DNA of 32,000 nucleotides from Kineococcus radiotolerans SRS30216 = ATCC BAA-149 (GTDB taxonomy: Bacteria; Actinomycetota; Actinomycetes; Actinomycetales; Kineococcaceae). Positions 14,664-30,843 of this stretch are shown piece by piece. Position numbers and translations under genes: made by a program. Location of the stretch: contig NC_009664.2 in the NCBI RefSeq assembly GCF_000017305.1, positions 510,001 through 542,000 on the forward strand. The letters are read 5' to 3'. Within the stretch, counting starts at the first letter, position 1. Every line of letters starts with the position of its first letter. The notes below the pieces were generated by a model. The model ran no database searches, had not been told where the DNA came from, and worked only from the letters and a program-made list of their open reading frames with translations.

Positions 14664-14687
14664 CCGATCGGGTGGCGCCCGGGCGGG

Positions 14688-14924: not shown

Positions 14925-15003
14925 GGGGCTCAGCATAGGTGACGAACCGTGTTCGGCCATGTCGTTGTCGTGACCGGGTTCCGATGTCGCACCGCACGCA
15001 GGA

Positions 15004-15031
15004 GGCGCCCGTCCCGGAGGGGACGGGCGCC
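15004..15031. terminator. perfect 12-bp GC hairpin between the small membrane gene and csrA
   Basis: GGCGCCCGTCCC (15004-15015) + GGAG + GGGACGGGCGCC (15020-15031). It lies 17 nt downstream of the 15048 stop on the minus strand and about 80 nt upstream of csrA ATG 14924. Confidence 0.55.
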
Positions 15032-15047
15032 TCGTGGCGGTGGGTGC

Positions 15048-15302
15048 TCAGAAGTCGTCGCGGCGCCGTCCGGGGACCCCGGGGACGGCGTCCTGCTCCC
15101 CGGCGGGGTGCGGGGGGTTCTCCGCGGCCTGGGCCTGGTAGCCGCGCACCACGCCGCGCACCAGGTGCCCGGCCACGGCGGTGACCACCAGGGCCAGGAC
15201 CAGGTGGAGCAGGGCGGTGTCCACGTCGCCGGTGCCCTCCAGGGCCGCCAGCACCGAGGGCCCGGCCAGCAGCAGGCTGACGGCCAGCACGATCGCGGTC
15301 AT
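15048..15302 (-). CDS. small membrane protein (2 predicted TM helices), unknown function
   Basis: ORF 15048..15302. Its ATG overlaps the PilZ gene stop (ATGA 15299-15302). Hydrophobic segments are TAIVLAVSLLLAGPSVLAAL and LLHLVLALVVTAVAGHLV. Confidence 0.55.
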   Translation of the reverse strand: MTAIVLAVSLLLAGPSVLAALEGTGDVDTALLHLVLALVVTAVAGHLVRGVVRGYQAQAAENPPHPAGEQDAVPGVPGRRRDDF

Positions 15303-16027
15303 CGGTCTCCTCCACGGCGTTGCCTGATCTGGGTCTGCATGACGTAGCGGCGCAGGCGGTCCGCGGCCGGGACCGGTTCGGTGAAGGCCACGACGACCTC
15401 CAGCAGCGCCGGGTCGAGGGAGTCCAGCGAGCGCACGACCTGCCCGACCTGGTCCACGGGGGACCCCTCGAGGTCGAAGGACGTGCGCACCAGCCGGCCC
15501 AGCCGCAGCCAGGTGCCCACCGGCACGCTCAGCGCCGACCCGCCCTCGCTGAGGTCGACGAGGTGGGCGGTGACGACCGGTTCGGCCGCGGCGTCGACGG
15601 GGTCGACCTCGCGCTGCATGGGGTCACCGGGCACCGGGGACAGCCGGGCCGTCCCGGTGGCCGGCACCCGCGCGTAGCGGCGGCGCTGCTCGACGACGAC
15701 CTCGCCGCAGGGGGCGAGGTCCCACGCCGCCACCCGGCGGCGCACGACCTCGGCGATCAGGAAGTCCTGCTTGCTGCGGCCGCGCGTGCCGGCCCAGGCC
15801 ACGGTGACGGGGAGGCCGGGGGCCACCACGTGCAGGTCCCCGCGGAAGCCGGGGGCGGCCACCACCAGGCTGGCCTCGCCGGTGTCCTCGACCCGCGTGG
15901 GCAGCCGGATCAGCTCACCCCCCAGGGTGTCGGGCATCTGCAGCTCGACCCAGACCCGGTCGTTGAGACCGGGCCACTGCGCGGCGGCGCGGGTCAGCTG
16001 GGCCCCGGGGGCGGCGCGTCGGGCCAT
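15299..16027 (-). CDS. YcgR/MotI-like PilZ-domain c-di-GMP receptor (flagellar brake candidate)
   Basis: ATG 16027 lies within ORF 15299..16309 and is preceded by GAGGACGAGG. Length is 242 aa. PilZ motifs are RxxxR (EQRRRYARV) and DxSxxG (VDLSEGGSAL), with an N-terminal PilZN-like half. It starts 31 nt after the flhF-like stop. Confidence 0.8.
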   Translation of the reverse strand: MARRAAPGAQLTRAAAQWPGLNDRVWVELQMPDTLGGELIRLPTRVEDTGEASLVVAAPGFRGDLHVVAPGLPVTVAWAGTRGRSKQDFLIAEVVRRRVAAWDLAPCGEVVVEQRRRYARVPATGTARLSPVPGDPMQREVDPVDAAAEPVVTAHLVDLSEGGSALSVPVGTWLRLGRLVRTSFDLEGSPVDQVGQVVRSLDSLDPALLEVVVAFTEPVPAADRLRRYVMQTQIRQRRGGDR

Positions 16028-16058
16028 GACGGCCTCGTCCTCGTGTTCCGGGGACCGC

Positions 16059-18512
16059 TCAGCGCGCGCCGTGGTCGCCGGCGGCGTCCAGCAGCAGCCC
16101 GGCCCAGGCGCCGGAGGTGGCGGGGCGCCCGTCGAGGAAGCCGACCGGCACGTCCAGGGAGAGGACGTCCAGGGGGTCGGGGCTCTCGGCGGCGCGGTGC
16201 ACGGCGAGGCGGCGCGCGGGGAGGCCGACGGCCTCCAGGGCGCGCAGCAGGCTGGCGACGGCGTGGCTGCGGCGGGTGGCGTCGACGCAGACGACGACGG
16301 AGGCGGCACCGATCTCGGCGGCCATGCGGGCGGCGCGCTCGGCGTCGGCCCCGGTGGGGCGGGCCGGGACGGCGACGGTCAGCGGGGCGCTCCAGCGGCG
16401 GGCCTGGTCCTGGCGGGCGGGCAGCTCGTCGGCGGTGACGGTGTTCTGGACGTCGGCGCGACCCAGCACCACGGGGGCCTCGGAGCCGACCTCGTCGGCG
16501 ACGAGCAGCGCGGCGGAGACGACGGCGTCGGCCTCGCCGATGACGACGACGAGCTCGCCGGCGCCCACGCGCAGCGGCGCGGGGACCTCGATGTCGCGGG
16601 CCAGGCGCAGCACGTCGCCGGTGTCCTGCGGCTCGCGGTAGACCGGGCGCTGCACCGCACGCTCGCTGTAGGTGGACATCGGTTCACGGTAAGTCAGATC
16701 CATGCTCATCGCCTCGTTCTCGTCCCCGTCACGTGCACTGGTGGTCTGGTAGCCGTTCACGGCCGTGTACTCGCGGGCGACGCGCTCGTCCTGACGCGGT
16801 GCGCGCTCGTCCTGCTCGGGGGCGTAGTGGCCCGCGAGGTCCTGCTGGTAGGCCGCCTCGAAGTCCTGGCCGGGCTGCTCGTGCTCCCCGGCCCACTCCG
16901 CGCGGCGCTCCTCGATCCCGCGCTCGGCGAAGCGGTCGCCGAACTGGTCACCGAACTGGTCGGCGAACTGGTCCGCCACGGCCGCCGGGCGGCGGAGCTC
17001 CGGGCGGCGGACGGGCCCGCGGGCCTCGAACTGGTCGGCTCGGCGCCCCGGGGAAGCGTTGGGGGCGACGCCGTTGGCCGCACCGAACTGGTCAGACACG
17101 CGATCCTCCGAGCTGCGAACGGTCCGGGTCGAGGCTTCGACCACGGGGCGACCCGGACGGGGACGAGCGGGCCGCGCAGGCTGCTTCGTCACCGAGCGTA
17201 CATCAGCCGTTACTCCAGTCGCAGAAGTTCGCGTGGGCCGGACCGCCTCGCCCCCCGTGCTCGCGGAGGAGCGCATCGAGGCCAGGGTCTGGGCGAAGGA
17301 GTCGCTCTCCGTGGAGATCGGGCGGTGCGGGCGCAGCGGGGCCTGCTCGCGGCGCGGGGCGGCCTGGGCCGGGACCGGGGCCTGCGAGCGCCCGGCGGTG
17401 AACATGGCCTCGAGGCGGTTGGTGCCCTCGGCGGCGTCGGCGGCGGCGAGGACCTCGCCCAGCGACCGGGTGGCCGGCGCGGTGCGGGCCACCCGCTCGG
17501 CCTGGCGGCGGCGGACGTCGGCCCGGGCCTCCTCGCGGCGCAGCTCCTGCTCGCGGGCGGCCTCCCGGCGGGACACCTCCTGCGCGTGCTGGCGCTCGAT
17601 CTGCTGCTGCCTCATCCGCTCCTCTTCCCGGGCTCGACGGTCGGCTTCCTGCTGCGCGGCCAGGCGCTCCTGCTCGGCGCGCTGCTGCTCGGCGCGCTGC
17701 TGCTCGGCGCGCTGCTGCTCGGCGCGCTGCTGCTCGGCCCGCTCCTGCTCGATGCGCTGCTGCTCGATGCGCTGCTGCGCAGCGCGCTCGGCACGTTCCT
17801 GCTCGGCGCGCTCGGCCTCGGCGCGCTCGATGCGCTCGATCTCGGCCCGCTCGGCCTCGGCCCGCTCGGCGTCGGCGCGCTCCTGCTCGAAGCGCTCCTG
17901 CTCGGCGCGCTCGGCCTGGCGGCGAGCCTGCTCGAGGAGCTGGGCCTCGAAGCCCGCGGCCTGCGCGCCGGCCTCGACCTCGCGGTCGTGCTCGACGTCG
18001 CCACCGGTCTCGACCGGGGTGCTGTCACCCGTTTGCGCGATCACGCCGTGGTCCTCGGCACCTGCGGGGAGAACCTTGAACGCGGCCGGCGCGGTGAGCT
18101 CGGGGGCGTCGGCGCCGGAGGCGCGCAGCACCTCCAGCAGACCCTGGCGGGCGGCCTCGAAGTCCTCCGCGGGCTGGGCCTGGGCGGGCGCCGGGACGGG
18201 CTCGGGGAGGGACTCCGCGGCGGACTCCGCGGCGTCGGCGGCGGCGAGGAGGGCCTCGAAGTCGAGGGCCTCGCGCTCCTCGCCCTCCACCGGGCCGGGG
18301 CCGGCCTGCGCACCCGCGGCGGGGTCCTCGGAACCGGTCTCGCTGTCCATCTCGACGGTCACCTCGTAGCGCTCCTTGGAGAAGAACCCGGCGACACCAC
18401 CGGAACGGATGCGTTCGGCGCGGATCACGCGGGCGGTCTCGCCGTGGGTCTCACGGACCTGCGTCAGCAGTTCCTGCAAGTCAGAACCTTCAAGAAGCAA
18501 GTGCATGGACAC
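16059..18512 (-). CDS. flhF: FlhF-like protein, 817 aa, with FlhF-type N-terminal domain, about 500-aa low-complexity/coiled-coil insert and degenerate (P-loop-less) NG-like C-terminus
   Basis: ORF 16059..18512. The N-terminus MSMHLLLEGSDLQELLTQVRETHGETARVIRAERIRSGGVAGFFSKERYEVTVEMD matches the FlhF B-domain pattern. The position after flhA is the conserved one. The C-terminal ~200 aa has the SRP-GTPase-like strand/helix rhythm (ELVVVIGEADAVVSAALLVA ... VVVCVDATRRS), but there is no GK[ST] anywhere and only 3 Lys in the whole protein. Confidence 0.7.
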   Translation of the reverse strand: MSMHLLLEGSDLQELLTQVRETHGETARVIRAERIRSGGVAGFFSKERYEVTVEMDSETGSEDPAAGAQAGPGPVEGEEREALDFEALLAAADAAESAAESLPEPVPAPAQAQPAEDFEAARQGLLEVLRASGADAPELTAPAAFKVLPAGAEDHGVIAQTGDSTPVETGGDVEHDREVEAGAQAAGFEAQLLEQARRQAERAEQERFEQERADAERAEAERAEIERIERAEAERAEQERAERAAQQRIEQQRIEQERAEQQRAEQQRAEQQRAEQQRAEQERLAAQQEADRRAREEERMRQQQIERQHAQEVSRREAAREQELRREEARADVRRRQAERVARTAPATRSLGEVLAAADAAEGTNRLEAMFTAGRSQAPVPAQAAPRREQAPLRPHRPISTESDSFAQTLASMRSSASTGGEAVRPTRTSATGVTADVRSVTKQPARPARPRPGRPVVEASTRTVRSSEDRVSDQFGAANGVAPNASPGRRADQFEARGPVRRPELRRPAAVADQFADQFGDQFGDRFAERGIEERRAEWAGEHEQPGQDFEAAYQQDLAGHYAPEQDERAPRQDERVAREYTAVNGYQTTSARDGDENEAMSMDLTYREPMSTYSERAVQRPVYREPQDTGDVLRLARDIEVPAPLRVGAGELVVVIGEADAVVSAALLVADEVGSEAPVVLGRADVQNTVTADELPARQDQARRWSAPLTVAVPARPTGADAERAARMAAEIGAASVVVCVDATRRSHAVASLLRALEAVGLPARRLAVHRAAESPDPLDVLSLDVPVGFLDGRPATSGAWAGLLLDAAGDHGAR
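17664..17783. repeat. about 8 tandem 15-bp units (GCGCTGCTGCTCGGC and variants) inside flhF-like, encoding (AEQQR)n / (IEQQR)n
   Basis: Four perfect units lie at 17679-17738, flanked by degenerate units. A second coding repeat of 12-bp period (GAACTGGTCNCC) at 16929-16976 encodes ADQFADQFGDQFGDRF. Confidence 0.85.
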
Positions 18513-20598
18513 CGCTCACCGATCCAACCGTCTCGATCCGGGGGTGGTTGCTCACGTCGTCGTAGGAGAGGACGTGCAGGCGGCCCACCGCCACCTTCAG
18601 CAGGCGGCGCAGGGGGGCTCGCAGAGGGGGCGCGCACACGAGGACTGCACTGATGCCGTGCTGTTCGGCACGTTCCAGGCAGGAACTTGAGCCGGTCACC
18701 AGGTGCTCGGCCGTCGCGGCGTCCAGGGCGAGGCTCGCGCCGTGCTCCCCGGGGCGCAGGGACTCCGCCAGCTGCTGCTCCAGGACCGGGTCCAGGGTGA
18801 TGACGTGCAGCGTGCCGTCCTGCTCGTGGACGGCCGCGACGGCCGGGCCGAGCGAGCGGCGGGCCGCCTCGACGAGGCCGTCGAGGTCGGAGCCGGCCTT
18901 CGCCTTGAGCGAGAGGGCCTCGAAGATGCGGGCGAGGTCGCGGATGGGGACGGCCTCGTCGAGCATCGCCTGCAGGACGCGCTGGACCTCGCCCAGCGTG
19001 AGCACCGCGGGGGTGAGCTCGTCGACGACGGCGGGGTGGGTCCGCTTGAGGGCCTCGACCAGGGAGCGGACGTCCTCGCGGGAGAGCAGGCGCGGAGCGT
19101 GGGTGCGGACCAGTTCTCCGAGGTGGGTGATGAGGACGCTGGCGCGGTCCACGACGGTGGCGCCGGTGAGCTGGGCCTGGTGGCGCAGCTCGGCGGGGAT
19201 CCACTTGCCGGCCAGGCCGAACACCGGCTCCACGGTGGCGCGCCCGGGCAGGCCGTCGAGGTTGTCGCCCAGGGCCAGGACCTGCCCGGGCGGGGCGGTG
19301 CCGCGGGCGACCTCGACGCCGGAGATGCGCACCGCGTAGGTGGACATCGGCAGGTCGAGGGAGTCGCGGGTGCGCACCGGGGGCACGACGAGACCCAGCT
19401 CGAGGGCGATCTTGCGGCGCAGGGCGCGCACGCGCTCCAGCAGGTCGCCACCGCCGGAGGTGTCGACGAGGTCGACGAGGTCGGGGGCCAGGACCACCTC
19501 GAGGGGGTCCACCCGCATCTCCTCCAGGAGGTTCTCGGCGGCCTCATTGGGGTTGACCGGGGCGGGGGTCAGCTCGGCCAGCGCCGCGGCGCGCTCGTCC
19601 TGCTGGTCGCGCTTGGCGATGCGGGTGGAGGCGAAGAACGCCAGCCCACCGACGAACAGGAAGGGCAGCTTGGGCATGCTGGGGATGAGCGCGAGCACGA
19701 CCATGGCCCCGCCGGCGATCTGGAAGGCCATCTTCTGCTGGGTGAACTGCTTGATGGCCTCGGTGCCCATGTCCCCGGTGGAGGTGGAGCGGGTCACGAT
19801 GAGGCCGGTGGCCACGCTCAGCAGCAGGGCGGGGACCTGGGTGACGAGCCCGTCGCCGATGCTCAGCAGGGCGTACTTGTTGATGGACTCCGCGGGGCTC
19901 AGACCGTGCTGGACCATCCCGATGGCGAACCCGCCGATGAGGTTGATCAGCATGATGATGATGCCGGCGATGGCGTCGCCCTTGACGAACTTCGAGCCAC
20001 CGTCCATGGCGCCGTAGAAGTCGGCCTCGGCGCTGACGTCGGCGCGGCGCTGACGGGCGGTGGCCTCGTCGATGAGCCCGGCGTTGAGGTCGGCGTCGAT
20101 GGCCATCTGCTTGCCGGGCATGGCGTCGAGGGTGAAGCGGGCCCCGACCTCGGCCACGCGCTCGGCGCCCTTGGTGATGACGACGAACTGGATGACGACC
20201 AGGATCAGGAAGACCACGAGGCCGATGACCAGCGAGCCGGAGATGACGAAGTGGCCGAAGGCCTCGATGACCTTGCCCGCGAAGCCGTCACCGAGGACCA
20301 GCCGCGTCGAGGCCACGTTGAGGCCGAGGCGGAAGAGGGTGAGGACGAGGATCAGCGAGGGGAAGACGGAGAAGTCCAGCACCCGCTTGACGAACATCGT
20401 CACCAGCAGCGCCATCAGCGACAGCGTGATGTTGACGGCGATGAGGAAGTCCAGCACCGTCGCCGGCAGCGGCACGATGAGCAGCAGGATGATGCCGACG
20501 ACTCCCGCCGGGACCACCATCTGCGAGATGTTGGGGATTCGCACCGCACCGCCTGTTGTTCGCGGGAGCCCTCGCGGGTCCCTCGTCCAGCGGCCCAT
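18490..20598 (-). CDS. flhA: flagellar type III export gate protein FlhA
   Basis: ORF 18490..20598. The N-terminal TM region contains LLLIVPLPATVLDFLIAVNITLSL and the FHIPEP-type block AERVAEVGARFTLDAMPGKQMAIDADLNAG. A large cytoplasmic C-domain follows. The 3' end overlaps the flhF-like start by about 20 nt. Confidence 0.95.
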   Translation of the reverse strand: MGRWTRDPRGLPRTTGGAVRIPNISQMVVPAGVVGIILLLIVPLPATVLDFLIAVNITLSLMALLVTMFVKRVLDFSVFPSLILVLTLFRLGLNVASTRLVLGDGFAGKVIEAFGHFVISGSLVIGLVVFLILVVIQFVVITKGAERVAEVGARFTLDAMPGKQMAIDADLNAGLIDEATARQRRADVSAEADFYGAMDGGSKFVKGDAIAGIIIMLINLIGGFAIGMVQHGLSPAESINKYALLSIGDGLVTQVPALLLSVATGLIVTRSTSTGDMGTEAIKQFTQQKMAFQIAGGAMVVLALIPSMPKLPFLFVGGLAFFASTRIAKRDQQDERAAALAELTPAPVNPNEAAENLLEEMRVDPLEVVLAPDLVDLVDTSGGGDLLERVRALRRKIALELGLVVPPVRTRDSLDLPMSTYAVRISGVEVARGTAPPGQVLALGDNLDGLPGRATVEPVFGLAGKWIPAELRHQAQLTGATVVDRASVLITHLGELVRTHAPRLLSREDVRSLVEALKRTHPAVVDELTPAVLTLGEVQRVLQAMLDEAVPIRDLARIFEALSLKAKAGSDLDGLVEAARRSLGPAVAAVHEQDGTLHVITLDPVLEQQLAESLRPGEHGASLALDAATAEHLVTGSSSCLERAEQHGISAVLVCAPPLRAPLRRLLKVAVGRLHVLSYDDVSNHPRIETVGSVSGVHALAS

Positions 20599-20664
20599 CC
20601 GTGGCCCTGCTGTCAGCCTTCCTGGCTAGTGCCTCCTTCGGCACCGGCCCCCGTTCCCTTGAGC

Positions 20665-20705
20665 CACCCGTCCGGGCGCACCCGTCCGGACGTCACCGTC
20701 CGGAC
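20665..20705. repeat. three direct repeats CACC(C)GTCCGG at 14-15-nt spacing, the last two forming a 9-bp perfect hairpin, in the REC-flhA spacer
   Basis: Repeats are at 20665-20675, 20679-20689 and 20694-20703. The inverted repeat is GTCCGGACG (20684-20692) / CGTCCGGAC (20697-20705) with a 4-nt loop. It lies 15 nt after the receiver gene stop (minus strand). Confidence 0.45.
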
Positions 20706-20719
20706 GCCACCGCCGGCCG

Positions 20720-21106
20720 TCACCAGCCCGCCGTCTCCACGGCCGCGGCGAGGGCCCGCTCGATCGCCGCGCCGAGCGCGCTGACCACGAAGGGCTTGGT
20801 GAGGTAGATCGCCCCCAGCGCCTCCCCCGCGGCGATGTCCTCCGGGCGCACGCGCGCGGAGAGGAAGACCGCGGGCAGGTGGGCGTGCTCGGGCTGCTCC
20901 CGCAGGGTGCGCAGGACCTCCAGGCCGGTCATGCCCGGCATGGCCACGTCGAGGACGAGGACCTCGGGGGCCCCGCGCTCGGCGACGACGGTGAGCGCCT
21001 CGGGGCCGGAGGCGGCCGAGACGACGCGGTGGCCCAGCCCGCGCAGGCGCAGTTCGACGAGCTGGCGGATGTCGGGGTCGTCCTCGACGACGAGCACTCG
21101 GGCCAC
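20720..21106 (-). CDS. stand-alone CheY-like receiver domain response regulator (no output domain)
   Basis: ORF 20720..21106. GTG start is preceded by AGGAGG (6-nt spacer). Receiver signature residues: VVEDDPD, phospho-acceptor VLVLDVAMPGMTG, and conserved Lys in YLTKPF. Length is 128 aa. Confidence 0.9.
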   Translation of the reverse strand: MARVLVVEDDPDIRQLVELRLRGLGHRVVSAASGPEALTVVAERGAPEVLVLDVAMPGMTGLEVLRTLREQPEHAHLPAVFLSARVRPEDIAAGEALGAIYLTKPFVVSALGAAIERALAAAVETAGW

Positions 21107-21161
21107 GGGGTTCCTCCTGGGGTCGACGGACTGACGTCGGCCCCATCGGCGGCGGGCGGCG

Positions 21162-23024
21162 TCAGCTGAGGGAGGGCCCGGCGGAGGGGTGGGCGCCCGC
21201 GGGGCGCGCGGCGGGGAAGGTGCAGCGCAGGGTGGCGCCGCCGCCGGGGGTCTCCTCGGCGCGGATGCGCCCGCCGTGGCGCTCGACGATGCGCAGGCAG
21301 GTGGCCAGCCCGATCCCGTGGCCGGGGCGCGCCGCGGGGGTCCCCCCGGGGCGCTCCTCGCCCAGCGGGGCGACGGCGAACATGGCGAAGACCTGCTCGC
21401 GCTGGCCGGCGGGGATGCCGCGGCCGTTGTCGGCGACGAGCAGCTCCCACCCGCCCCCGGGCAGCGGGCGGGTGCTCACCCGGACCCGGCACGGGCGCAG
21501 CGGGGAGCGGTAGCGCACCGCGTTGCCGACGAGGTTCTGCAGCAGCTGCCGCAGCAGGACGGGGTCGGCGCGGGTCTCGACCTCGACCCCCGTCCCGGCG
21601 CACGCGCCGCCCGCGCCACCGCCCGTGCCGGTCGCGATCGGCTCGAAGGCGATGTCGGCGTCGTCGGCGGCCGGGCCCAGGTCCTCCACGACGTGGGCCA
21701 GGACGTCGGGCAGCAGGACCGGGCGCACGCTGAACCCGGTGGAGCCGGCGCGGGCGTGGTCGAGGACGGCCTCGATGAGGCCCTGCATGCGCAGCGCGGC
21801 GCGCACCGCGGTGGCCATCCACTCCCGCCCCTGCCCGCCGAGGGCCTCGCCGTGGACGTCGAGGACCAGTTCCAGGTAGCCCAGGACGGCGGTCAGCGGG
21901 GAGGCCAGGTCGTGGCTGGCCACGGCGGCGAGGTGGACGAGCTCCTCGTTGGAGCGGCGCAGCTCGGCCACCGCGGCGGCCAGTTCCCCGCCCTGGTGGC
22001 GCAGCTGCTCCCCCGCCTGCTCCAGGGCCGCGATGCGGGCCCGGTCGGCGGTGATGTCCTGCATCGCCACGACGGCGCCGAGGACGCGGCCCTCGTCGTC
22101 GTGCAGGGCGCGCCCGGTGACCAGGACCCGCACGGGGTCGCCGTCCCGGGGGGCGATGACCACCTCGGCGTCGCGGACGGAACCCTCCGCCAGCGCCCGC
22201 CGCAGCGGGACCCGGCCGGCCTCCAGCGGGGTGCGGCCGTCGGCGTCGTAGAGGACGTGGGTGGGCGCGGACCCGGCCGGGGGCGGGCCGGAGCCGGCGT
22301 CCATGCCGTGGAAGCGGCGGGCGGCGGGGTTGAAGGCGGTGAGCGCGCCGTCGGCGTCGCAGGCGACGACGCCCACCTCGAGGCTGTCCAGCAGCGCCTG
22401 GGTCAGCTCCTCGCGCGCCTGCAGCTCCCCGAGGGTGAGCTCGGCGAGCGCGCGCTGCTCCTCGACCTCGTCGAGCAGGCGCTGCTGCTCGCCGGTGCGG
22501 CGGTGGCGGCCCAGCAGGGCCGTCGCGACGCCGGCGAGGTCGCGCAGCCGCTCGAGCTGGTCCGCGCTCAGCTCGCGGGGGGCGACGTCGCCGACGCAGA
22601 GGCTGCCCAGGCGGTGGCCCTCGGCGGTGACCAGCGGGGCGGCGGCGTGGAAGACGACCTCGCCCAGCCGCCCGTCGACCCACGCGGAGGTGGCGTAGCG
22701 GGGGTCGCGGCGGGCGTCGGGGACGTGGACGACGCGGGGGTCGTCGAGGTCGCGCGCGCCCAGCGACTCCGCCCGCTCGCTCCCGCCCCGGGCGGCGCCG
22801 ACGGCGGCCACCCGGTGCTGCCGGGTGGCGTCGAGGAGGTCGAGGGTCGCGGTGGGGACCCCGACGAGGGCGGCGGCGACGCGCACGAGGGCGTCCAGCT
22901 CGGGGTCGGCGGCGGCGGCGGGCAGGTCGTGGGCGCGCAGGGCCGCGAGCCGGGCGGCCTCCGCGGGTGCGGCGGCCGCGCGCGGGTCCCGGGCGCGCGG
23001 GTCGACGACGGCGGGGCGGGTCAC
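21162..23024 (-). CDS. cytoplasmic sensor histidine kinase (GAF - coiled coil - PAS - HisKA - HATPase_c)
   Basis: GTG 23024 overlaps the upstream kinase stop (GTGA 23021-23024), in the frame of ORF 21162..24062. H-box is AAVASHDLASPLTAVLGYLEL. N-box is LLQNLVGNAVRY, G1 is VADNGRGIP and G2 is GHGIGLATC. No TM segment seen. Confidence 0.85.
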   Translation of the reverse strand: MTRPAVVDPRARDPRAAAAPAEAARLAALRAHDLPAAAADPELDALVRVAAALVGVPTATLDLLDATRQHRVAAVGAARGGSERAESLGARDLDDPRVVHVPDARRDPRYATSAWVDGRLGEVVFHAAAPLVTAEGHRLGSLCVGDVAPRELSADQLERLRDLAGVATALLGRHRRTGEQQRLLDEVEEQRALAELTLGELQAREELTQALLDSLEVGVVACDADGALTAFNPAARRFHGMDAGSGPPPAGSAPTHVLYDADGRTPLEAGRVPLRRALAEGSVRDAEVVIAPRDGDPVRVLVTGRALHDDEGRVLGAVVAMQDITADRARIAALEQAGEQLRHQGGELAAAVAELRRSNEELVHLAAVASHDLASPLTAVLGYLELVLDVHGEALGGQGREWMATAVRAALRMQGLIEAVLDHARAGSTGFSVRPVLLPDVLAHVVEDLGPAADDADIAFEPIATGTGGGAGGACAGTGVEVETRADPVLLRQLLQNLVGNAVRYRSPLRPCRVRVSTRPLPGGGWELLVADNGRGIPAGQREQVFAMFAVAPLGEERPGGTPAARPGHGIGLATCLRIVERHGGRIRAEETPGGGATLRCTFPAARPAGAHPSAGPSLS

Positions 23025-25294
23025 GGTGCGCCTCCGGTCCGGGCGGGGTCGCGGTCCTCCAGCAGCGGCAGCTCCAGCCGCGCGGTGGTGCCCTGGCCCT
23101 CCACGGACTCCAGGTCCAGGGACCCCCCGTGCAGGCGGACCAGGTCGCGGGCGATGGTGAGGCCGAGCCCGGCGCCGGGCACGGCGAGCGCGGTGGCGTT
23201 GGACCCGCGCGCGAAGCGGGCGAAGACGGCGTCGGTCTCCCCCGCCGGGATCCCCATCCCGTTGTCCTGCACCACGATCCGTACCCGCCCGGGGTGGTTC
23301 TCCACCCGCAGGCGGACCAGGGACCCCACGGGGGAGAACTTCACGGCGTTGTCCACCACGGCCAGCACGGCGCGGTGGAGGTGCTCGGCGTCGCCGCGGG
23401 TGCGCAGGCCGGTGAGGTCGGCGGGCGGGGTCGTGCAGCGCAGCGTGCCGCCGCGGGTGGCGCCGCCCTGCACGGTGCGCGCGACCCCGGCGACGAGGTC
23501 GGCGACGGTGGTGGTGGTGCGCACCGGGGCCCCGGGGCCCGCGGCGAGGGGCTCCACCCGCGAGAGCAGCAGCAGGTCCTCGATGAGCGAGCGCAGCCGG
23601 TCGGTGTTGCGCTCGACGATGCCCAGGACGGCGGCGACGTCCTCGGGGACCTCCCCGAGGGCGCCGTCGCGCAGCAGCTCCAGGTAGCCGGCGATGCTGG
23701 TCAGGGGGGTGCGCAGCTCGTGCGAGACGGTGGCCAGCAGGTCCGACTTCACCGACTCCACCTCCCGCAGCTCCCCCAGCAGCCGCTCCTGGGCGCGGTA
23801 GAGACCGGCCAGGACCAGGGCGCGGGCCAGGTCGACGGCCACCGAGCGGGCCAGTTCGACCTCCGGCACCGACCAGTCGCGCGCCCGGGCTCCGACGAGG
23901 GTGAGCAGGCCGTGCGGGGCTTCCCCGACGCCGATGGGGACGAGCAGCGCCGCGCCGGCGCGGGCGCCGGGGAGGTCGTCGAGCAGCTCGCGGGGGACCT
24001 CGGAGGGGGTGGTGCCGGGCACGGCGTGGACCTCCCCGCCCGCGTGCAGCCGCCGCAGCCACTCCGCGGCCCCGGGGGCGCCGGAAGGGTCACCGGGCAC
24101 GGCGGTGCCGCCGGGGCCCGGGGCGTCGAGGGGGGCCAGCGGCGGGCGGGCCCACTGCTGGGCGATGGGGGTCACCCCGGAGCCGGTGAGCAGGCGCACC
24201 CGGACCCGGGCGACGTCGAGCTCCTCCCCCAGCCGGGTCACGGCCACCTGCAGGGCGTCGTCGGCGACGAGCTGGTCGCGGACCTGGCGGCCGATGTCAC
24301 CGGCGAGGCGGTGCAGGTGCGCGGACTGCTCCGCGGCCTGCAGCAGCCGGCGGTTCTCCCGGGCCAGGTCGTTGAGGGCGAGCGCCACGGCGCGGACCTC
24401 GCCGGGGCCGCGGGTGGGGTCGGCGACGGGGGTGGCGCGCTGGGCGCGTCCGCCGGGAGCGGTGCGCAGGGCGTCGAGGACGTCGACGAGGGCCCGCAGG
24501 GGGTCGACGAGCGCGTGGCGGGTGCGGACACCGGTGGTGACGACCACGGCGAGAGCGGCGGCGAGGGTGAGGGCGGTGACGACGAGGGCACCGGTGCGGG
24601 CCCGGTCCTCGGCCGAGGTGGCCTCGTCGCGCTGGTGGCGCACGAGGACGTCGAGGCGCTCGTTCGCCTCGTGCAGGGCGTCGAAGGCGTCGGCCTCGGC
24701 GGTGGCGGCGGCGACCACGGCGGCGCCGCGGTCGGGGTCGGTGCCGGCCAGCCAGACCTCCGCGAGCCGGGTCTGCTCGTCGAAGAGGCTGCGCTGCAAC
24801 GGGTCGGTGAGGAGGGACTCGACGTCCCCGCGCAGGGCGGGCAGCGTCCGGACGGACTGGCGGTAGGCCTCCAGGTGGTCCGGCCGCAGGGTGTCGCGGT
24901 AGTCGCGCAGCGCGGCGTCGGCCTCGGCGGTGGTCAGCTGCAGGGCGGTGTTGGCCGCCTCGAGCCGGCGCAGCTGGGTCTCGTGGGCCCGGGAGGCCCC
25001 GGTGACCAGCAGCCCGCCCGCCCCGGAGACCCCCACGAGCAGCAGCAGGACGACGACGACGCCGTGGGCGCGGGTGAGGCGGGCCCCCACCGAGGTGCCG
25101 GTGCGCCCGCGGGGGCGGGAGGCCGGACGGGCTGCGGGGTGGGTGTCGGGGTGGGTGTCGCCGCCGGGCCGCGGCGGGTGCGCGCGGTCCACGTCCGGCG
25201 CCCTGCGCGCACCACCCGGTCGGCCCACACCGTCACCATCGGCCCGGTCCCCGGCGGTCTTGAACGACCCCGGGGGGCCCGCTTCGCGCGGCAC
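23021..25294 (-). CDS. membrane sensor histidine kinase (TM - CHASE3-like - TM - HAMP - GAF - HisKA - HATPase_c)
   Basis: ORF 23021..25294 (GTG, 3 nt after the flhB stop; alternative GTG 25090 just before the first TM). Segments: TM HGVVVVLLLLVGVSGAGGLLV, periplasmic helical region ALRDYRDTLRPDHLEAYRQS (CHASE3-like), second TM ALVVTALTLAAALAVVV. H-box is LATVSHELRTPLTSIAGYLELL. N/G boxes are VVDNAVKFS, VQDNGMGIP, GAGLGLTIA. Confidence 0.8.
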   Translation of the reverse strand: MPREAGPPGSFKTAGDRADGDGVGRPGGARRAPDVDRAHPPRPGGDTHPDTHPAARPASRPRGRTGTSVGARLTRAHGVVVVLLLLVGVSGAGGLLVTGASRAHETQLRRLEAANTALQLTTAEADAALRDYRDTLRPDHLEAYRQSVRTLPALRGDVESLLTDPLQRSLFDEQTRLAEVWLAGTDPDRGAAVVAAATAEADAFDALHEANERLDVLVRHQRDEATSAEDRARTGALVVTALTLAAALAVVVTTGVRTRHALVDPLRALVDVLDALRTAPGGRAQRATPVADPTRGPGEVRAVALALNDLARENRRLLQAAEQSAHLHRLAGDIGRQVRDQLVADDALQVAVTRLGEELDVARVRVRLLTGSGVTPIAQQWARPPLAPLDAPGPGGTAVPGDPSGAPGAAEWLRRLHAGGEVHAVPGTTPSEVPRELLDDLPGARAGAALLVPIGVGEAPHGLLTLVGARARDWSVPEVELARSVAVDLARALVLAGLYRAQERLLGELREVESVKSDLLATVSHELRTPLTSIAGYLELLRDGALGEVPEDVAAVLGIVERNTDRLRSLIEDLLLLSRVEPLAAGPGAPVRTTTTVADLVAGVARTVQGGATRGGTLRCTTPPADLTGLRTRGDAEHLHRAVLAVVDNAVKFSPVGSLVRLRVENHPGRVRIVVQDNGMGIPAGETDAVFARFARGSNATALAVPGAGLGLTIARDLVRLHGGSLDLESVEGQGTTARLELPLLEDRDPARTGGAP

Positions 25295-25297
25295 GGC

Positions 25298-26380
25298 TCA
25301 GGCGGGGACGGTGTGGGCGTCGCCGAAGGCGGTCAGCGACCCGCGGCTGCGCAGGTTCATGACGAAGGCGAGGACCTTGGCCACGGCAGCGAAGAACTCC
25401 GGCGGGATCTCCTGGCCGATCTTGCAGCTCTTGTACATGGTGCGGGCCAACTGGACGTCCTTGACCAGGGGGACGTCGTTCTCCTTGGCCTTCTCGCGGA
25501 TCTTGCTGGCGATGGCGCCGGCGCCCTTGGCCACGACCTTGGGCGCCCCGGTGCCGGGTTCGTAGCGCAGGGCCACCGCGATGTGGGTGGGGTTGACCAG
25601 GACGACGTCGGCGGAGGCGACGTCGGACATCATCCGGTTGCGCGACATGGCCATCTGCTTGGAGCGGATGGCGCCCTTGAGCAGCGGGTCGCCCTCGGCG
25701 TTCTTGTGCTCCATCTTGATGTCCTGCTTGCTCATCCGCAGCTTCTTCATCGTGCGGCGGTAGCTCATGGCGTAGTCGCCGGCGGCGATGATCAGGCCGA
25801 GGAGGACGGTGACGGCGACGATCTTCACCACCGCCCCCTTGGTGAGGGTGAGCACCGAGGCCAGCGGCATGAGGCCGCTGCCGACGAACTGCGGGACGAG
25901 GTTCTTCACCACCAGCCACATGACCGTCCCGATGACGACGGTCTTCAGCAGCGACTTCGTGCCCTCCCACAGGGCCTGCGGACCCCAGTGCTGCTTGAAG
26001 CCGTTGACGGGGTTGAGGTTGCTGAACTTCGGCTTCAGCTTCTTCGGCGCCGGGCGCAGGGTGCCCTGGACGCCGCCGGAGACCACGACGGCGAAGACGG
26101 TGGCCGCGGCCAGCGGGCCCAGGACGCCGGGGATCCCGGCGAAGGTGGCGGCCAGGGCGGCCAGGGCGCGCGCGGGTTCGGGATCGGCCGCGACCGCGCC
26201 GACCCCGGCGAACGCCTTGCGCAGCAGCACCTGACCGGACTCGATGGTGTGCGGGATCGTCACGGCCCCCGCCCCGGTGGACAGCCACGCCGCGACGTCG
26301 CGGGAGAAGGGGATGTTCCCCTCGTCGCGGGCCTCCTTGAGCTTCTTCGGAGTCGGCTTCTCGGTCTTCTCACCGCTCAC
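25298..26380 (-). CDS. flhB: flagellar export switch protein FlhB
   Basis: ORF 25298..26380 (GTG overlapping the fliR stop, GTGA 26377-26380). N-terminus is SGEKTEKPTPKKLKEARDEGNIPFSRDV. The NPTH autocleavage site is in ADVVLVNPTHIAVALRY. Confidence 0.95.
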   Translation of the reverse strand: MSGEKTEKPTPKKLKEARDEGNIPFSRDVAAWLSTGAGAVTIPHTIESGQVLLRKAFAGVGAVAADPEPARALAALAATFAGIPGVLGPLAAATVFAVVVSGGVQGTLRPAPKKLKPKFSNLNPVNGFKQHWGPQALWEGTKSLLKTVVIGTVMWLVVKNLVPQFVGSGLMPLASVLTLTKGAVVKIVAVTVLLGLIIAAGDYAMSYRRTMKKLRMSKQDIKMEHKNAEGDPLLKGAIRSKQMAMSRNRMMSDVASADVVLVNPTHIAVALRYEPGTGAPKVVAKGAGAIASKIREKAKENDVPLVKDVQLARTMYKSCKIGQEIPPEFFAAVAKVLAFVMNLRSRGSLTAFGDAHTVPA

Positions 26381-27528: not shown

Positions 27529-27556
27529 TTCTCGGCCGATCGGGTGAGGTTCTTGA
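27529..27556 (-). promoter_or_regulatory. sigma-28 (FliA/SigD)-like promoter candidate TCAA-N16-GCCGAGAA upstream of fliQ
   Basis: The minus strand reads TCAAgaacctcacccgatcgGCCGAGAA. The known consensus is TAAA-N15-GCCGATAA. The -10-like box matches 7/8, the -35 matches 3/4, and the spacer is 1 nt long. It lies about 45 nt upstream of fliQ ATG. Motif match only. Confidence 0.25.
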
Positions 27557-29118: not shown

Positions 29119-29867
29119 CAGGCGCCGGCCTCCGGGGTGACGATCTCGGTGATGCGGATGGCGTAGTCCTCGTCGACGACGACGACCTCGCCGCGGGCGA
29201 TGAGCTGGCCGTTGACCAGGACGTCGGCGGGGCTGCCCGCGGCGCGGTCGAGCTCCACGACCGAGCCGGGGGTCAGGGCCAGCAGGTCCTGCACGGTCAT
29301 GCTCGTGCGGCCGAGCTCGACGGTGACGTCCATCTGCACGTCGCGCAGCAGGTCCATCGTGCGGCGCGGGCCGGCCGGGGCGGGGGTGCCGGCCGGGGCG
29401 AAGGACGGCATCGGGGCCGGGGTGGTGTCCGGCTGGGCGGTGAGGGTGAGGCCGATGAGGGCCAGGGTCTCCCCGCCGGCGTCGATGACGGCGACGGCCC
29501 CGTCGGCGATCTGGGACAGCGCCTGCGCCGGGTCGCCCTCGACCCCGGCCTCCAGGGTGCACTGACCCAGGGCGTGCACGACGGTCTCCAGCGCCGGGCG
29601 CAGGGCGTCGACGGGGTCCAGGGCGCCCTCGGGGCTCATGAGGAGGGTGTTGAGGGTCTCCTCGCCGACCACGACGGTGACCCGCCCGTTGGCGGCGCCG
29701 GCGAAGTTCGCCGAGACCGCGATGCCCTCGTCGCCGAGGTCGGGGGCCTGGGCGACCGCGAGGACGGTGGAGATGGTGCCCGGCGCGGACAGCGGGAGGA
29801 CGGCGAGCGCAGCCTGAGCGGCCTCGCGCAGCGTGGACATGAGGTCGGCGTGGGTGGCGGTGCTCAT
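29118..29867 (-). CDS. fliN: flagellar motor switch protein FliN/FliY (C-terminal SpoA/FliN domain with ~150-aa N-terminal extension)
   Basis: ORF 29118..29867. Its ATG overlaps the fliM stop (ATGA 29864-29867). The C-terminal block is DVQMDVTVELGRTSMTVQDLLALTPGSVVELDRAAGSPADVLVNGQLIARGEVVVVDEDYAIRITEIV. The N-terminal part is only weakly CheC/FliM-middle-like. Confidence 0.85.
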   Translation of the reverse strand: MSTATHADLMSTLREAAQAALAVLPLSAPGTISTVLAVAQAPDLGDEGIAVSANFAGAANGRVTVVVGEETLNTLLMSPEGALDPVDALRPALETVVHALGQCTLEAGVEGDPAQALSQIADGAVAVIDAGGETLALIGLTLTAQPDTTPAPMPSFAPAGTPAPAGPRRTMDLLRDVQMDVTVELGRTSMTVQDLLALTPGSVVELDRAAGSPADVLVNGQLIARGEVVVVDEDYAIRITEIVTPEAGA

Positions 29868-30808
29868 CGTGCGTTCTCCTCGGGGGTCGGGACGATCAGG
29901 CAGGCGAGCTTCGCGCCGCGGCTACCGGCCACGGCGGAGGCGACGTGGGCGTCGGAGGACACGACCTCCAGGGGTTCGTCGGCGCGGTGCGGCAGGCGCA
30001 GCACGTCGCCGGGGACGAGACCGAGGATCTCGTCGGGGCGCATCTGCGCCGCCTTCATCCGCACCGAGACCTCGACGGGGATGTGCTCGAGGTGGTCGTC
30101 GAGGCGGTCGCGCATGAGGCGCCGGATCCGCAGCTCCTCGGGGCTGGCCACCCGCAGCTCGGCCGCGGTCAGCGCCGTCGACAGCGGGTCCAGCGGCATC
30201 GCCAGGGTCGCGGTGCCGGCCACCCCGTCGACCTCCAGGTGGAAGGAGGACACGATCATCACGTCCGTGGCGGCCGCGGCCTGCGCGAAGGCGGGGTTCT
30301 GGTCGATCGCGGTCAGCTTCGGCTTGAGGTCGGTGACCGTGACCAGCGAGGAGGCCAGCTCGACCAGGGTCCGCTCGACCATGCCGCGGGCCAGGACGGC
30401 CTCGATGTCGGTCAGCTGCCGCTCGGGCTGGGCGTTGTGCCCGGTCCCGCCGAGCATCCGCTCGATGCAGGAGAGCACGAAGGCCATGTCCATGTGCAGG
30501 ACGGCCGCCCCGACCAGCGGTTCGGGGTCGAAGACGGCCATGACCGTCGGCATCGGCAGCGACGCGGCGTACTCGTCGTAGCTGTACTGCTGGATGCCGT
30601 CGAGCTCCACCTGCACCGTGGTGCGCAGGGTGGAGGACAGCAGCGTCGCCCACTGCCGGCAGAAGCCCTCGTAGGTGATCTCGAGCACGCGGGCGTGCTG
30701 ACGGGACAGCTTGGTCGGCCGTCGGAAGTCGTACGGGACGGGAACACCGCGTCGCCGGGAGCGACGGGTGCCTGTCCGCTCTGCGGTGCTGGGGGTCTCG
30801 GCTGCCAC
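29864..30808 (-). CDS. fliM: flagellar motor switch protein FliM (no N-terminal CheY-P docking motif)
   Basis: ORF 29864..30808 (GTG). Blocks seen: PYDFRRPTKLSRQHARVLEITYEGFCRQWATLLSSTL, GGTGH (GGxG region), and a C-terminal FliN-like domain LGLVPGDVLRL. An in-frame TAG 9 nt upstream of the GTG prevents any N-terminal extension. Confidence 0.9.
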   Translation of the reverse strand: MAAETPSTAERTGTRRSRRRGVPVPYDFRRPTKLSRQHARVLEITYEGFCRQWATLLSSTLRTTVQVELDGIQQYSYDEYAASLPMPTVMAVFDPEPLVGAAVLHMDMAFVLSCIERMLGGTGHNAQPERQLTDIEAVLARGMVERTLVELASSLVTVTDLKPKLTAIDQNPAFAQAAAATDVMIVSSFHLEVDGVAGTATLAMPLDPLSTALTAAELRVASPEELRIRRLMRDRLDDHLEHIPVEVSVRMKAAQMRPDEILGLVPGDVLRLPHRADEPLEVVSSDAHVASAVAGSRGAKLACLIVPTPEENAR

Positions 30809-30814
30809 GCTCCC

Positions 30815-30843
30815 CTATCGGCACGAACGGCCGTCACCCTTTA
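30815..30843 (-). promoter_or_regulatory. sigma-28-like promoter candidate TAAA-N17-GCCGATAG abutting the fliM start (would give a leaderless or near-leaderless mRNA)
   Basis: The minus strand reads cTAAAgggtgacggccgttcgtGCCGATAGgggagcGTG. The -10-like box matches GCCGATAA 7/8 and ends 6 nt before the fliM GTG. The spacer is 2 nt longer than consensus. There is no usable SD. Motif match only. Confidence 0.3.

What the first reader, a model, noticed from the sequence alone, without database searches (positions are those of the whole stretch)
20599..25297. Two sensor kinases plus a stand-alone CheY-like receiver inserted between flhB and flhA of the flagellar export operon
In the flagellar operons I know (e.g. 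B. subtilis fla/che: fliP-fliQ-fliR-flhB-flhA-flhF-flhG), flhB and flhA are adjacent. Here 4.7 kb separates them.

The insert encodes three proteins on the same strand:
- a membrane kinase (TM-CHASE3-like-TM-HAMP-GAF-HisKA-HATPase);
- a soluble kinase (GAF-PAS-HisKA-HATPase);
- a 128-aa receiver with no output domain.

The junctions suggest co-expression with the export genes. The longest kinase ORF starts 3 nt after the flhB stop. The two kinases share a GTGA start/stop overlap. The receiver has a strong AGGAGG. No convincing terminator is visible until the hairpin after the receiver gene.

A receiver-only output implies protein-protein signalling. It sits next to switch proteins that lack the usual CheY-P docking peptide (separate finding). 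My hypothesis is a dedicated, CheA-independent phosphorelay that gates flagellar assembly or rotation in response to two different sensory inputs.
Basis: partly seen in the sequence, partly recalled or inferred. Interest (0 to 1): 0.72.

Follow-up and report, generated by a model that had tools for sequence, protein, structure and literature searches.

The report
Kineococcus flagellar-cluster two-component module
Two sensor kinases and a small receiver protein really do sit between the flagellar export genes flhB and flhA of Kineococcus radiotolerans, but the arrangement was listed in the 2008 genome paper, occurs only in one clade of this genus, lies in a gap where other genes have also been inserted, and its function is untested.

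Summary
On the minus strand the order is flhB, membrane kinase HK1, soluble kinase HK2, a 128-aa stand-alone receiver (RR), then flhA. The window is Kineococcus radiotolerans, genes Krad1669-1673.

The arrangement was already tabulated by Bagwell et al. 2008, who proposed a CckA-like developmental role. No experiments were found.

New here:
- Distribution: the module is conserved in six core Kineococcus species. HK2 is missing in one and shortened in another. It is absent from K. xinjiangensis and from 17 other flagellated Actinomycetota.
- Junction: it is a boundary between transcription units. flhA keeps a conserved sigma-28/WhiG-type promoter motif and a roughly 90-nt leader. Pseudokineococcus carries unrelated genes at the same spot, and K. 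aurantiacus has an opposite-strand gene between RR and flhA.
- Promoters: HK1 and RR each have their own conserved sigma-28-type motif. The module therefore looks recruited into the flagellar sigma regulon rather than expressed only by read-through.
- Receiver: it is not a CheY equivalog. It belongs to a large actinobacterial family ending in Trp, normally paired with CHASE3 hybrid kinases.
- FliM: loss of the CheY-docking peptide is shared by all 17 sampled Actinomycetota, so it is not linked to this insert.

The output target is unknown. Interest is modest.

The parts
25298..26380 (-). flhB (Krad1669), export-gate protein; upstream flank of the insert
   Evidence: Pfam Bac_export_2, E 2.9e-109. 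Listed as flhB in PMC2587704 Table 7.
25236..25263 (-). Sigma-28/WhiG-type promoter motif upstream of HK1 (TCAAG-N15-GGCCGATGG)
   Evidence: Pattern hit. The -35 and -10 blocks are invariant in six Kineococcus species while the flanks diverge (A3). It fits the published T(A/C)AA-N16-GCCGA form (PMC12871210).
23021..25228 (-). HK1 (Krad1670): TM, CHASE3-like, TM, HAMP, GAF, HisKA, HATPase_c membrane kinase. The longest ORF extends to 25294.
   Evidence: Pfam hits. H-box SHELRTP. Full-length orthologues at 59-71% identity carry only Kineococcus names or are unnamed, apart from one MAG contig labelled Janthinobacterium. The GTG at 25228 is conserved.
21162..23024 (-). HK2 (Krad1671): GAF, PAS, HisKA, HATPase_c soluble kinase. 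Its start overlaps the HK1 stop (GTGA).
   Evidence: Pfam hits. Overlap seen. Absent in Kineococcus sp. TBRC 1896. Shorter, with no PAS hit on record, in DHX-1.
21143..21170 (-). Sigma-28/WhiG1-type promoter motif upstream of RR (CTCA-N16-GCCGATGG). The -35 block overlaps the last HK2 codons.
   Evidence: Pattern hit. Present with N16-17 spacing in all six species, including the one that lacks HK2.
20720..21106 (-). RR (Krad1672): 128-aa stand-alone receiver with D9, D10, D53, S83, Y101, K104 and a C-terminal Trp
   Evidence: Pfam Response_reg only. 84-90% identical across core Kineococcus. In the wider family, 112 of 120 members end in W.
20684..20705 (-). 9-bp GC-rich hairpin after the RR stop (GUCCGGACG-GUGA-CGUCCGGAC); possible terminator without a U tract
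   Evidence: Fold; the region's z-score is only -1.76. No canonical intrinsic terminator was found between flhB and flhA on this strand.
20635..20663 (-). Sigma-28/WhiG-type promoter motif of flhA (CTCAAG-N15-TGCCGAAGG)
   Evidence: Pattern hits. Invariant in six Kineococcus species (A2). Retained in K. xinjiangensis and Pseudokineococcus.
20545..20634 (-). Conserved non-coding flhA leader with hairpins that present GGA in their loops
   Evidence: The core leader is almost entirely invariant in A2, and indels break any reading frame. RNAalifold predicts the hairpins, with one compensatory pair. No Rfam family matches.
18490..20544 (-). flhA (Krad1673), export-gate protein; downstream flank of the insert
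   Evidence: Pfam FHIPEP, E 2.3e-249. The 684-aa form is 92-93% identical across the genus.

Best explanation
This is a two-component module found only in a core clade of Kineococcus. It was inserted into the gap between two flagellar transcription units, after the flhB stop and before the older flhA promoter and leader.

HK1 is a membrane sensor with a periplasmic CHASE3-like domain, HAMP and GAF. HK2 is a cytoplasmic GAF-PAS sensor and is dispensable in some species. Both are inferred to phosphorylate the stand-alone receiver Krad1672 on D53.

HK1-HK2 and RR each sit behind a conserved sigma-28 (FliA/WhiG1)-type promoter motif. The module is therefore inferred to be made together with the flagellar regulon of the motile zoospore. 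It would then adjust flagellar assembly, motor behaviour or the adjacent PilZ/CsrA/diguanylate-cyclase circuit through protein-protein contacts of the phosphorylated receiver.

Shown: genes, domains, catalytic residues, distribution, and conservation of the motifs. Inferred: phosphotransfer, sigma-28 dependence, and a motility-related output. The direct target is unknown.
For: - Domains and catalytic residues are intact.
- The same order, flhB-HK1-(HK2)-RR-flhA, occurs in six Kineococcus species, although the kinases are only 60-71% identical to the K. radiotolerans proteins.
- RR is 84-90% identical, comparable to FlhB at 79-83%.
- HK1-HK2 translational coupling (GTGA overlap) is conserved.
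- HK1 and HK2 share the DHp helix-1 segment PLT(S/A)(I/V)xGYLEL. The hybrid kinases that pair with the RR's paralogues read differently there. This fits a shared partner.
- Sigma-28-type motifs match the published actinobacterial consensus. They lie upstream of HK1, RR and flhA in all six species, inside otherwise diverged spacers.
- In the window, TCAA-N15-17-NCCGA occurs 9 times, all on the flagellar strand, against 0.89 expected.
- The unrelated cargo at the same junction in Pseudokineococcus has no such motifs.
- K. radiotolerans zoospores grow flagella only after particular environmental cues (PMC2587704), which creates a need for sensory input.
Against: - There are no expression, phosphotransfer or phenotype data.
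- The junction is an insertion hot spot, so position alone is weak evidence.
- The RR's wider family is encoded outside flagellar loci.
- Some sigma-28-like matches inside coding sequence are conserved only because the protein is conserved, for example the one in flhB. The motif alone therefore gives false positives.
- The hairpin after RR is not significantly more stable than shuffled sequence.
Confidence: 0.55

Rival explanations
1. Passenger module. The three genes are an ordinary two-component system with a function unrelated to motility. They landed in a permissive gap between operons and stayed there by descent.
For: - The same junction holds a glycosyltransferase and an NmrA-like gene in Pseudokineococcus.
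- The RR|flhA gap holds an opposite-strand phosphotriesterase gene in K. aurantiacus.
- RR paralogues and relatives are encoded next to CHASE3 hybrid kinases in non-flagellar neighbourhoods.
- HK2 is lost or truncated in some species.
Against: - Flagellar-sigma-type promoter motifs are conserved in front of HK1 and RR in all six species. The Pseudokineococcus cargo has none.
- Position and order are kept despite substantial divergence of the kinases.
Confidence: 0.2
2. The genes are co-transcribed within one export operon, and the receiver acts as a CheA-independent CheY substitute at a switch complex that has lost the CheY-P docking peptide.
For: - No canonical terminator lies between flhB and RR.
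- The receiver has the aromatic switch residue Y101 and the K104-P motif, as CheY does.
- CheY structures are among its PDB matches, E about 7e-17.
- FliM here lacks LSQxEIDALL.
Against: - The FliM peptide is missing in all 17 Actinomycetota examined, and none of the 17 has the insert.
- The CheY equivalog model scores 50.8 bits against a cut-off of 189. PleD REC1 and PhoB-type receivers score as well or better.
- flhA has its own ancestral promoter motif, and in K. aurantiacus it is separated from RR by an opposite-strand gene.
- A complete chemotaxis pathway is reported elsewhere in the genome.
Confidence: 0.12
3. The Bagwell et al. 2008 proposal. Krad1670 is a CckA-like developmental kinase at the top of the hierarchy that switches flagellar gene transcription on during zoospore formation.
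For: - The kinase sits next to export genes.
- The organism has a dimorphic life cycle with flagellation that depends on environmental cues (PMC2587704).
Against: - HK1 has no C-terminal receiver domain, and no Hpt protein or DNA-binding regulator is encoded nearby.
- No curated kinase model reaches its cut-off. DivJ scores 84.6 bits against 1000.
- A kinase sitting behind a sigma-28-type promoter would be expressed late, not at the top of the cascade.
- The module is absent from K. xinjiangensis, which keeps the rest of the cluster.
Confidence: 0.08

Closest known systems
Published annotation of the same locus (Krad1670-1672; Bagwell et al. 2008, PLoS One 3:e3878, PMC2587704)
   Same: The same three genes are listed between flhB (Krad1669) and flhA (Krad1673) as histidine kinase/GAF, histidine kinase/GAF and receiver domain protein. 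A regulatory role in flagellar biogenesis was suggested.
   Different: That paper gave no comparative, promoter or family analysis, and it called Krad1670 a possible cckA homologue, which is not supported here. It treated Krad1670 as the last gene of the export operon.
Flagellar-cluster two-component systems FlgS/FlgR (Campylobacter, Helicobacter), FlrB/FlrC (Vibrio) and FleS/FleR (Pseudomonas). Comparison from general knowledge.
   Same: A histidine kinase and a response regulator are tied genetically to flagellar genes and link flagellar gene expression to assembly state or signals.
   Different: Those regulators are NtrC-type sigma-54 activators with AAA+ and DNA-binding domains. Here the regulator is a bare 128-aa receiver, there are two kinases, and the module appears to lie downstream of sigma-28 rather than upstream of the late genes.
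Stand-alone receivers CheY, DivK and CpdR, and the REC1 domain of PleD. Comparison from general knowledge.
   Same: It is a single receiver domain with intact phospho-acceptor and switch residues, so its output must be by protein-protein contact. The best PDB match is PleD REC1, and CheY is close behind.
   Different: It reaches no equivalog cut-off (CheY 50.8 of 189; CpdR 49.9 of 180). It is partnered with HisKA kinases rather than CheA, and it ends in a family-specific Trp.
Actinobacterial receiver family ending in Trp, encoded directly upstream of CHASE3-HAMP-HisKA-HATPase-REC-(Hpt) hybrid kinases (loci L096, L097, L100, L103). Uncharacterised as far as I could find.
   Same: 59-73% identity to Krad1672 over the full length, the same size, and the same C-terminal Trp. 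HK1 also has a CHASE3-like plus HAMP sensor.
   Different: In Kineococcus the gene order is kinase(s) then receiver. HK1 and HK2 have no REC or Hpt domains, so transfer would be direct. HK1's kinase core is only about 30% identical to the hybrid kinases, and its DHp helix differs. The setting is flagellar.
WhiG1/FliA (sigma-28) promoters of Actinomycetota (consensus CTCA-N16-17-GCCGAACT; PMC12871210)
   Same: The motifs upstream of HK1, RR, flhA, fliQ, fliM and the GGDEF gene fit the published -35, spacer and -10 pattern.
   Different: No transcription-start or sigma-dependence data exist for Kineococcus, and that study's text does not mention the genus.

Membership tests
Two-component system (HisKA-class kinase plus receiver) | HisKA dimerisation domain with the H-box histidine, and an HATPase_c catalytic domain | tested here: met
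   HK1: HisKA E 1e-19, HATPase_c E 7e-25, H-box SHELRTP. HK2: HisKA E 1e-9, HATPase_c E 4e-25, H-box SHDLASP.
Two-component system (HisKA-class kinase plus receiver) | Receiver domain with the acidic pocket, phospho-acceptor Asp, Ser/Thr and Lys | tested here: met
   Response_reg E 6e-21. D9, D10, D53, S83 and K104 are present and conserved in the 120-member alignment.
Two-component system (HisKA-class kinase plus receiver) | Phosphotransfer from these kinases to this receiver | not testable with these tools
   Only indirect support: adjacency conserved in six species, and a DHp helix-1 segment shared by HK1 and HK2.
CheY (chemotaxis response regulator) | Scores above the curated CheY equivalog cut-off | tested here: not met
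   NF007901 CheY: 50.8 bits against a cut-off of 189. PhoB, CseB and PleD receiver models score higher.
CheY (chemotaxis response regulator) | Partnered with CheA and encoded with che genes | tested here: not met
   The neighbours are HisKA-class kinases. No CheA, CheW or MCP gene is in the window.
CheY (chemotaxis response regulator) | Target FliM carries the N-terminal LSQxEIDALL docking peptide | tested here: not met
   The FliM match begins at model position 34 of 320, and no such motif is in its N-terminus. The peptide is also absent in all 17 actinobacterial FliM sequences examined.
CckA-type developmental hybrid kinase (the 2008 proposal) | Hybrid kinase with a C-terminal receiver domain feeding an Hpt phosphorelay | tested here: not met
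   HK1 ends after HATPase_c. No REC or Hpt domain is found in HK1 or HK2, and no curated kinase model reaches its cut-off.
NtrC-type flagellar regulators (FlgR, FlrC, FleR) | Receiver fused to a sigma-54 AAA+ activator and a DNA-binding domain | tested here: not met
   The regulator is 128 aa with the receiver domain only.
Sigma-28/WhiG1-dependent promoter | CTCA or T(A/C)AA, 16-17 nt spacer, GCCGA, within 200 nt of a start codon | tested here: met
   Hits lie upstream of HK1, RR and flhA and are conserved in six species. The consensus is taken from PMC12871210.
Sigma-28/WhiG1-dependent promoter | Transcription start at the expected distance, and dependence on the sigma factor | not testable with these tools
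   No transcript data are available. The generic sigma-70 scan found nothing in 18-27 kb.
Receiver family ending in Trp, paired with CHASE3 hybrid kinases | About 126-130 aa, at least 59% identity across the family, C-terminal Trp | tested here: met
   Listed relatives are 59-73% identical. 112 of 120 end in W, and Krad1672 ends AGW.
Receiver family ending in Trp, paired with CHASE3 hybrid kinases | Encoded immediately upstream of a CHASE3-HAMP-HisKA-HATPase-REC-(Hpt) kinase | tested here: not met
   Here the receiver follows HK1 and HK2, which have no REC or Hpt domains. The canonical arrangement is seen in L096, L097, L100 and L103.
CsrA-regulated leader (for the flhA 5' region) | Multiple GGA motifs presented in hairpin loops near the ribosome-binding site | tested here: inconclusive
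   Three conserved hairpins have GGA in the loop, with one compensatory pair, and csrA lies four genes downstream. Only six close sequences were available, and there are no binding data.

The most novel reading that the evidence does not exclude
The phosphorylated receiver could be a checkpoint factor for the flagellar sigma regulon in a phylum that lacks FlgM and has no known anti-sigma factor for WhiG1. It is made from sigma-28-type promoters. It might feed back on WhiG1/FliA activity or on the FlhA/FlhB export gate, so that environmental signals sensed by HK1 and HK2 decide whether zoospores complete and use their flagella.
Probability: 0.07. Interest if true: 0.65.

Novelty: new member of a known kind. 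Interest (0 to 1): 0.3.

Why it matters
If the module does control zoospore flagellation or swimming, it would give a concrete entry point to a question the 2008 genome paper left open. That question is which environmental cues trigger flagellum formation in Kineococcus, and how they are sensed.

It would also be an example of a stand-alone receiver recruited from a non-motility family into a flagellar sigma regulon.

The wider lessons are comparative:
- In this order, the flhB|flhA junction is a promoter-bearing boundary that accepts foreign genes.
- The absence of the FliM CheY-docking peptide in all Actinomycetota sampled here is the more general puzzle.

Tried and rejected
- Rfam scan of the RR-flhA region: only chance-level matches, best E 0.25 and far below the gathering scores.
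- Generic sigma-70 and terminator scan of 18-27 kb: no promoters, and no canonical terminator between flhB and flhA on the gene strand.
- Search for the flhA leader in 17 other actinobacterial loci by blastn-short: only 9-13-nt chance matches.
- Common origin of HK1 and the CHASE3 hybrid kinases that pair with the RR's relatives: BLASTP aligns only the kinase core at about 30% identity, no closer than HK1 to HK2. Not supported.
- Horizontal transfer judged from composition: the insert is 77-81% GC against 71% for flhB and flhA. Non-flagellar genes in the window are equally GC-rich, so this is not informative.
- Logan contigs spanning HK2-RR-flhA as evidence of co-transcription: rejected. The library type is unknown, and the shared contig ends look like assembly breaks.
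- The sigma-28-like hit inside flhB: rejected as a promoter. The same sequence is conserved in distant genera because it encodes a conserved peptide.
- My first Pfam call on the left part of the window failed because of wrong coordinates. It was redone.
Full report
**Observation**

The window is about 75% GC, so I called genes by third-position GC. All relevant genes lie on the minus strand.

Pfam gives this order: motB-like, fliL, fliM, fliN, fliO, fliP, fliQ, fliR, flhB (25298-26380), HK1 (23021-25294 as the longest ORF), HK2 (21162-23024), RR (20720-21106), flhA (18490-20598 as the longest ORF). After flhA come an 817-aa protein with no Pfam hit, a PilZ protein, a small ORF, csrA and a PAS-GGDEF gene.

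- The long HK1 ORF starts 3 nt after the flhB stop.
- The HK1 stop and HK2 start overlap as GTGA.
- AGGAGG precedes the RR start.
- A hairpin follows the RR stop.

CHASE3, HAMP and GAF in HK1, and GAF in HK2, are sub-threshold in this species. They are on record among the precomputed Pfam hits of orthologues.

**Identity and prior knowledge**

The receiver is 100% identical to a Kineococcus radiotolerans protein, and the locus maps to assembly GCA_014191015.1. [quoted passage not shown] It suggests a CckA-like developmental role. A full-text search for these locus tags found no other paper. The arrangement is therefore already published, but it has not been characterised.

**Distribution**

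- flhB lies next to flhA, with no intervening gene, in 16 of the 17 other flagellated Actinomycetota recovered through FlhA; in Dactylosporangium flhB is inverted.
- Full-length HK1 orthologues (59-71% identity) carry only Kineococcus names or are unnamed, apart from one MAG contig labelled Janthinobacterium. The next hits align only over the kinase core.
- The order flhB-HK1-HK2-RR-flhA recurs in K. sp. R86509, K. rhizosphaerae, K. aurantiacus and K. sp. DHX-1. In DHX-1, HK2 is 456 aa with no PAS hit on record. K. sp. TBRC 1896 has HK1-RR only.
- K. xinjiangensis (FlhA 80% identical) keeps the whole cluster but has only a 286-nt gap between flhB and flhA.
- Pseudokineococcus (FlhA 71%) has a glycosyltransferase and an NmrA-like gene at that junction.
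- K. aurantiacus has an opposite-strand phosphotriesterase gene between RR and flhA.

The module therefore arose in a core Kineococcus clade, at a junction that has accepted other cargo.

**Transcription signals**

The RR-flhA spacer ends in a block that is almost entirely invariant across six species. Indels in it break any reading frame, and the ATG at 20598 is not conserved, so flhA starts at GTG 20544.

The block begins with CTCAAG-N15-TGCCGAAGG. The published actinobacterial consensus is CTCA-N16-17-GCCGAACT for WhiG1 and T(A/C)AA-N16-GCCGATAA for WhiG2 (PMC12871210). The same element precedes flhA in K. xinjiangensis and Pseudokineococcus. Similar motifs precede flhA in Krasilnikovia, Nocardioides and Sanguibacter, and overlap the aligned flhA start in Dactylosporangium.

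In the window, TCAA-N15-17-NCCGA occurs 9 times, all on the flagellar strand, against 0.89 expected.

Conserved copies lie in front of HK1 and RR:
- HK1: 25236-25263. The motif is followed 7 nt later by a genus-conserved GTG at 25228. This suggests a 735-aa protein and a very short leader or none (A3).
- RR: 21143-21170. It is present with N16-17 spacing in all six species, including the one that lacks HK2 (A4).

The Pseudokineococcus cargo has no such motifs. I infer three sigma-28-type units: HK1-HK2, RR, and flhA with the genes after it. I do not infer a single operon. Read-through from flhB is not excluded, because no canonical terminator was found.

**The receiver**

It has D9, D10, D53, S83, Y101 and K104, and it is 84-90% identical across the six species. 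For comparison, FlhB is 79-83%, FlhA 92-93%, HK1 66-71% and HK2 60-67%.

It reaches no curated equivalog. CheY scores 50.8 bits against a cut-off of 189. The best PDB match is PleD REC1.

1244 proteins match at E ≤ 1e-8, and outside the flagellar clade the listed relatives are 59-73% identical. Among the 120 best matches, 112 end in Trp. All four non-flagellar members whose context I read lie directly upstream of a CHASE3-HAMP-HisKA-HATPase-REC-(Hpt) hybrid kinase. One is in K. arenarius, a core species by FlhA identity (89%), and another is in K. xinjiangensis. Krad1672 is therefore a paralogue recruited from that family.

HK1's kinase core is no closer to those hybrid kinases than it is to HK2. 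HK1 and HK2 share PLT(S/A)(I/V)xGYLEL after the phospho-histidine. By inference from established work on specificity residues, this is consistent with a common partner.

**The FliM argument**

FliM here lacks the LSQxEIDALL peptide. So do all 17 other actinobacterial FliM sequences examined, while many non-actinobacterial loci in the same set have it. None of those 17 has the insert, so the trait cannot explain a module found only in Kineococcus.

**Mechanism and confidence**

- Most likely (0.55): a Kineococcus-specific sensory branch expressed with the flagellar sigma regulon. HK1 supplies an extracytoplasmic input and HK2 an optional cytoplasmic input. Both converge on a stand-alone receiver that acts by protein contact on flagellar assembly, the motor, or the neighbouring PilZ/CsrA/GGDEF circuit.
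- Rival (0.2): a passenger two-component system unrelated to motility.
- Rival (0.08): the CckA-like master-regulator proposal.

None of these can be settled without transcript mapping, phosphotransfer assays and mutants.

**Verdict**

The feature is real, and it was accurately described apart from the operon inference and the FliM link. It had already been tabulated in the literature, and it is taxonomically narrow. It is a new, uncharacterised member of a familiar kind of system: a branched two-component pathway with a single-domain receiver. Interest is 0.3.

Noticed in passing
window 20545-20634 (-), with equivalents in L091, L092, L094, L098, L099, L101: The flhA 5' leader is more conserved than most coding sequence nearby. 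It contains three hairpins with GGA in the loop (GCC-GAAGGA-GGC, GCC-AGGAA-GGC, GGCC-ACGGAUG-GGCC), which resemble CsrA binding sites. csrA lies four genes downstream. No Rfam family matches.
   Followed up: partly
window 30818-30843, 27532-27556, 18055-18079, 14629-14653 (all -): Further sigma-28/WhiG-type motifs on the flagellar strand. They lie directly before fliM (TAAA-N16-GCCGATAG, 9 nt from the GTG, so nearly leaderless), in the 250-nt fliP-fliQ gap, inside the 817-aa gene, and in the csrA-GGDEF gap. Those before fliQ, inside the 817-aa gene and (where the locus reaches it) before the GGDEF gene recur at orthologous positions in the other Kineococcus loci; the fliM site was not checked there.
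   Followed up: partly
FliM in window 29864-30814 (-), and FliM in loci L001-L016 and L023: All 17 actinobacterial FliM proteins examined lack the N-terminal LSQxEIDALL CheY-docking peptide. Many Bacillota, Nitrospirota and other FliM proteins in the same data set have it. How CheY reaches the motor in flagellated Actinomycetota remains an open question across the sampled phylum.
   Followed up: partly
window 16059-18512 (-): The 817-aa protein after flhA has no Pfam hit. Its first roughly 55-200 residues weakly match the N-terminus of FlhF (TIGR03499, E 2e-7, far below cut-off), with no GTPase domain detected. Only its N- and C-terminal ends are conserved in other Actinomycetota. A sigma-28-like motif conserved across the genus lies about 430 nt into the gene.
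   Followed up: no
window 12732-16378 (-): The flagellar cluster ends with a PilZ protein (the K. xinjiangensis orthologue also hits PilZNR, as YcgR does), a small ORF of about 80 aa, csrA, and a PAS-PAS-GGDEF cyclase behind its own sigma-28-like motif. No FliW was detected next to csrA.
   Followed up: no
L102 5600-7775 and L098 7511-8464: The flhB|flhA junction carries different cargo in relatives. Pseudokineococcus basanitobsidens has a glycosyltransferase and an NmrA-like gene. K. aurantiacus has an opposite-strand phosphotriesterase-family gene between RR and flhA.
   Followed up: yes
RR family (P0086-P0205); loci L096, L097, L100, L103: A large family of stand-alone receivers of about 128 aa, seen here in Actinomycetota loci and in metagenomes, ends in an almost invariant Trp (112 of 120). 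Where the context was read, the gene sits just upstream of, or overlaps, a CHASE3-HAMP hybrid kinase with REC and Hpt. I found no description of this pairing.
   Followed up: partly
window 3000-6000 (+): This stretch has extreme composition: GC up to 0.83, GC skew up to +0.26 and AT skew down to -0.63. It lies around a MoxR-type AAA gene (2140-3228) and a TgpA-like transglutaminase gene (4241-6262), and is unrelated to the flagellar cluster.
   Followed up: no
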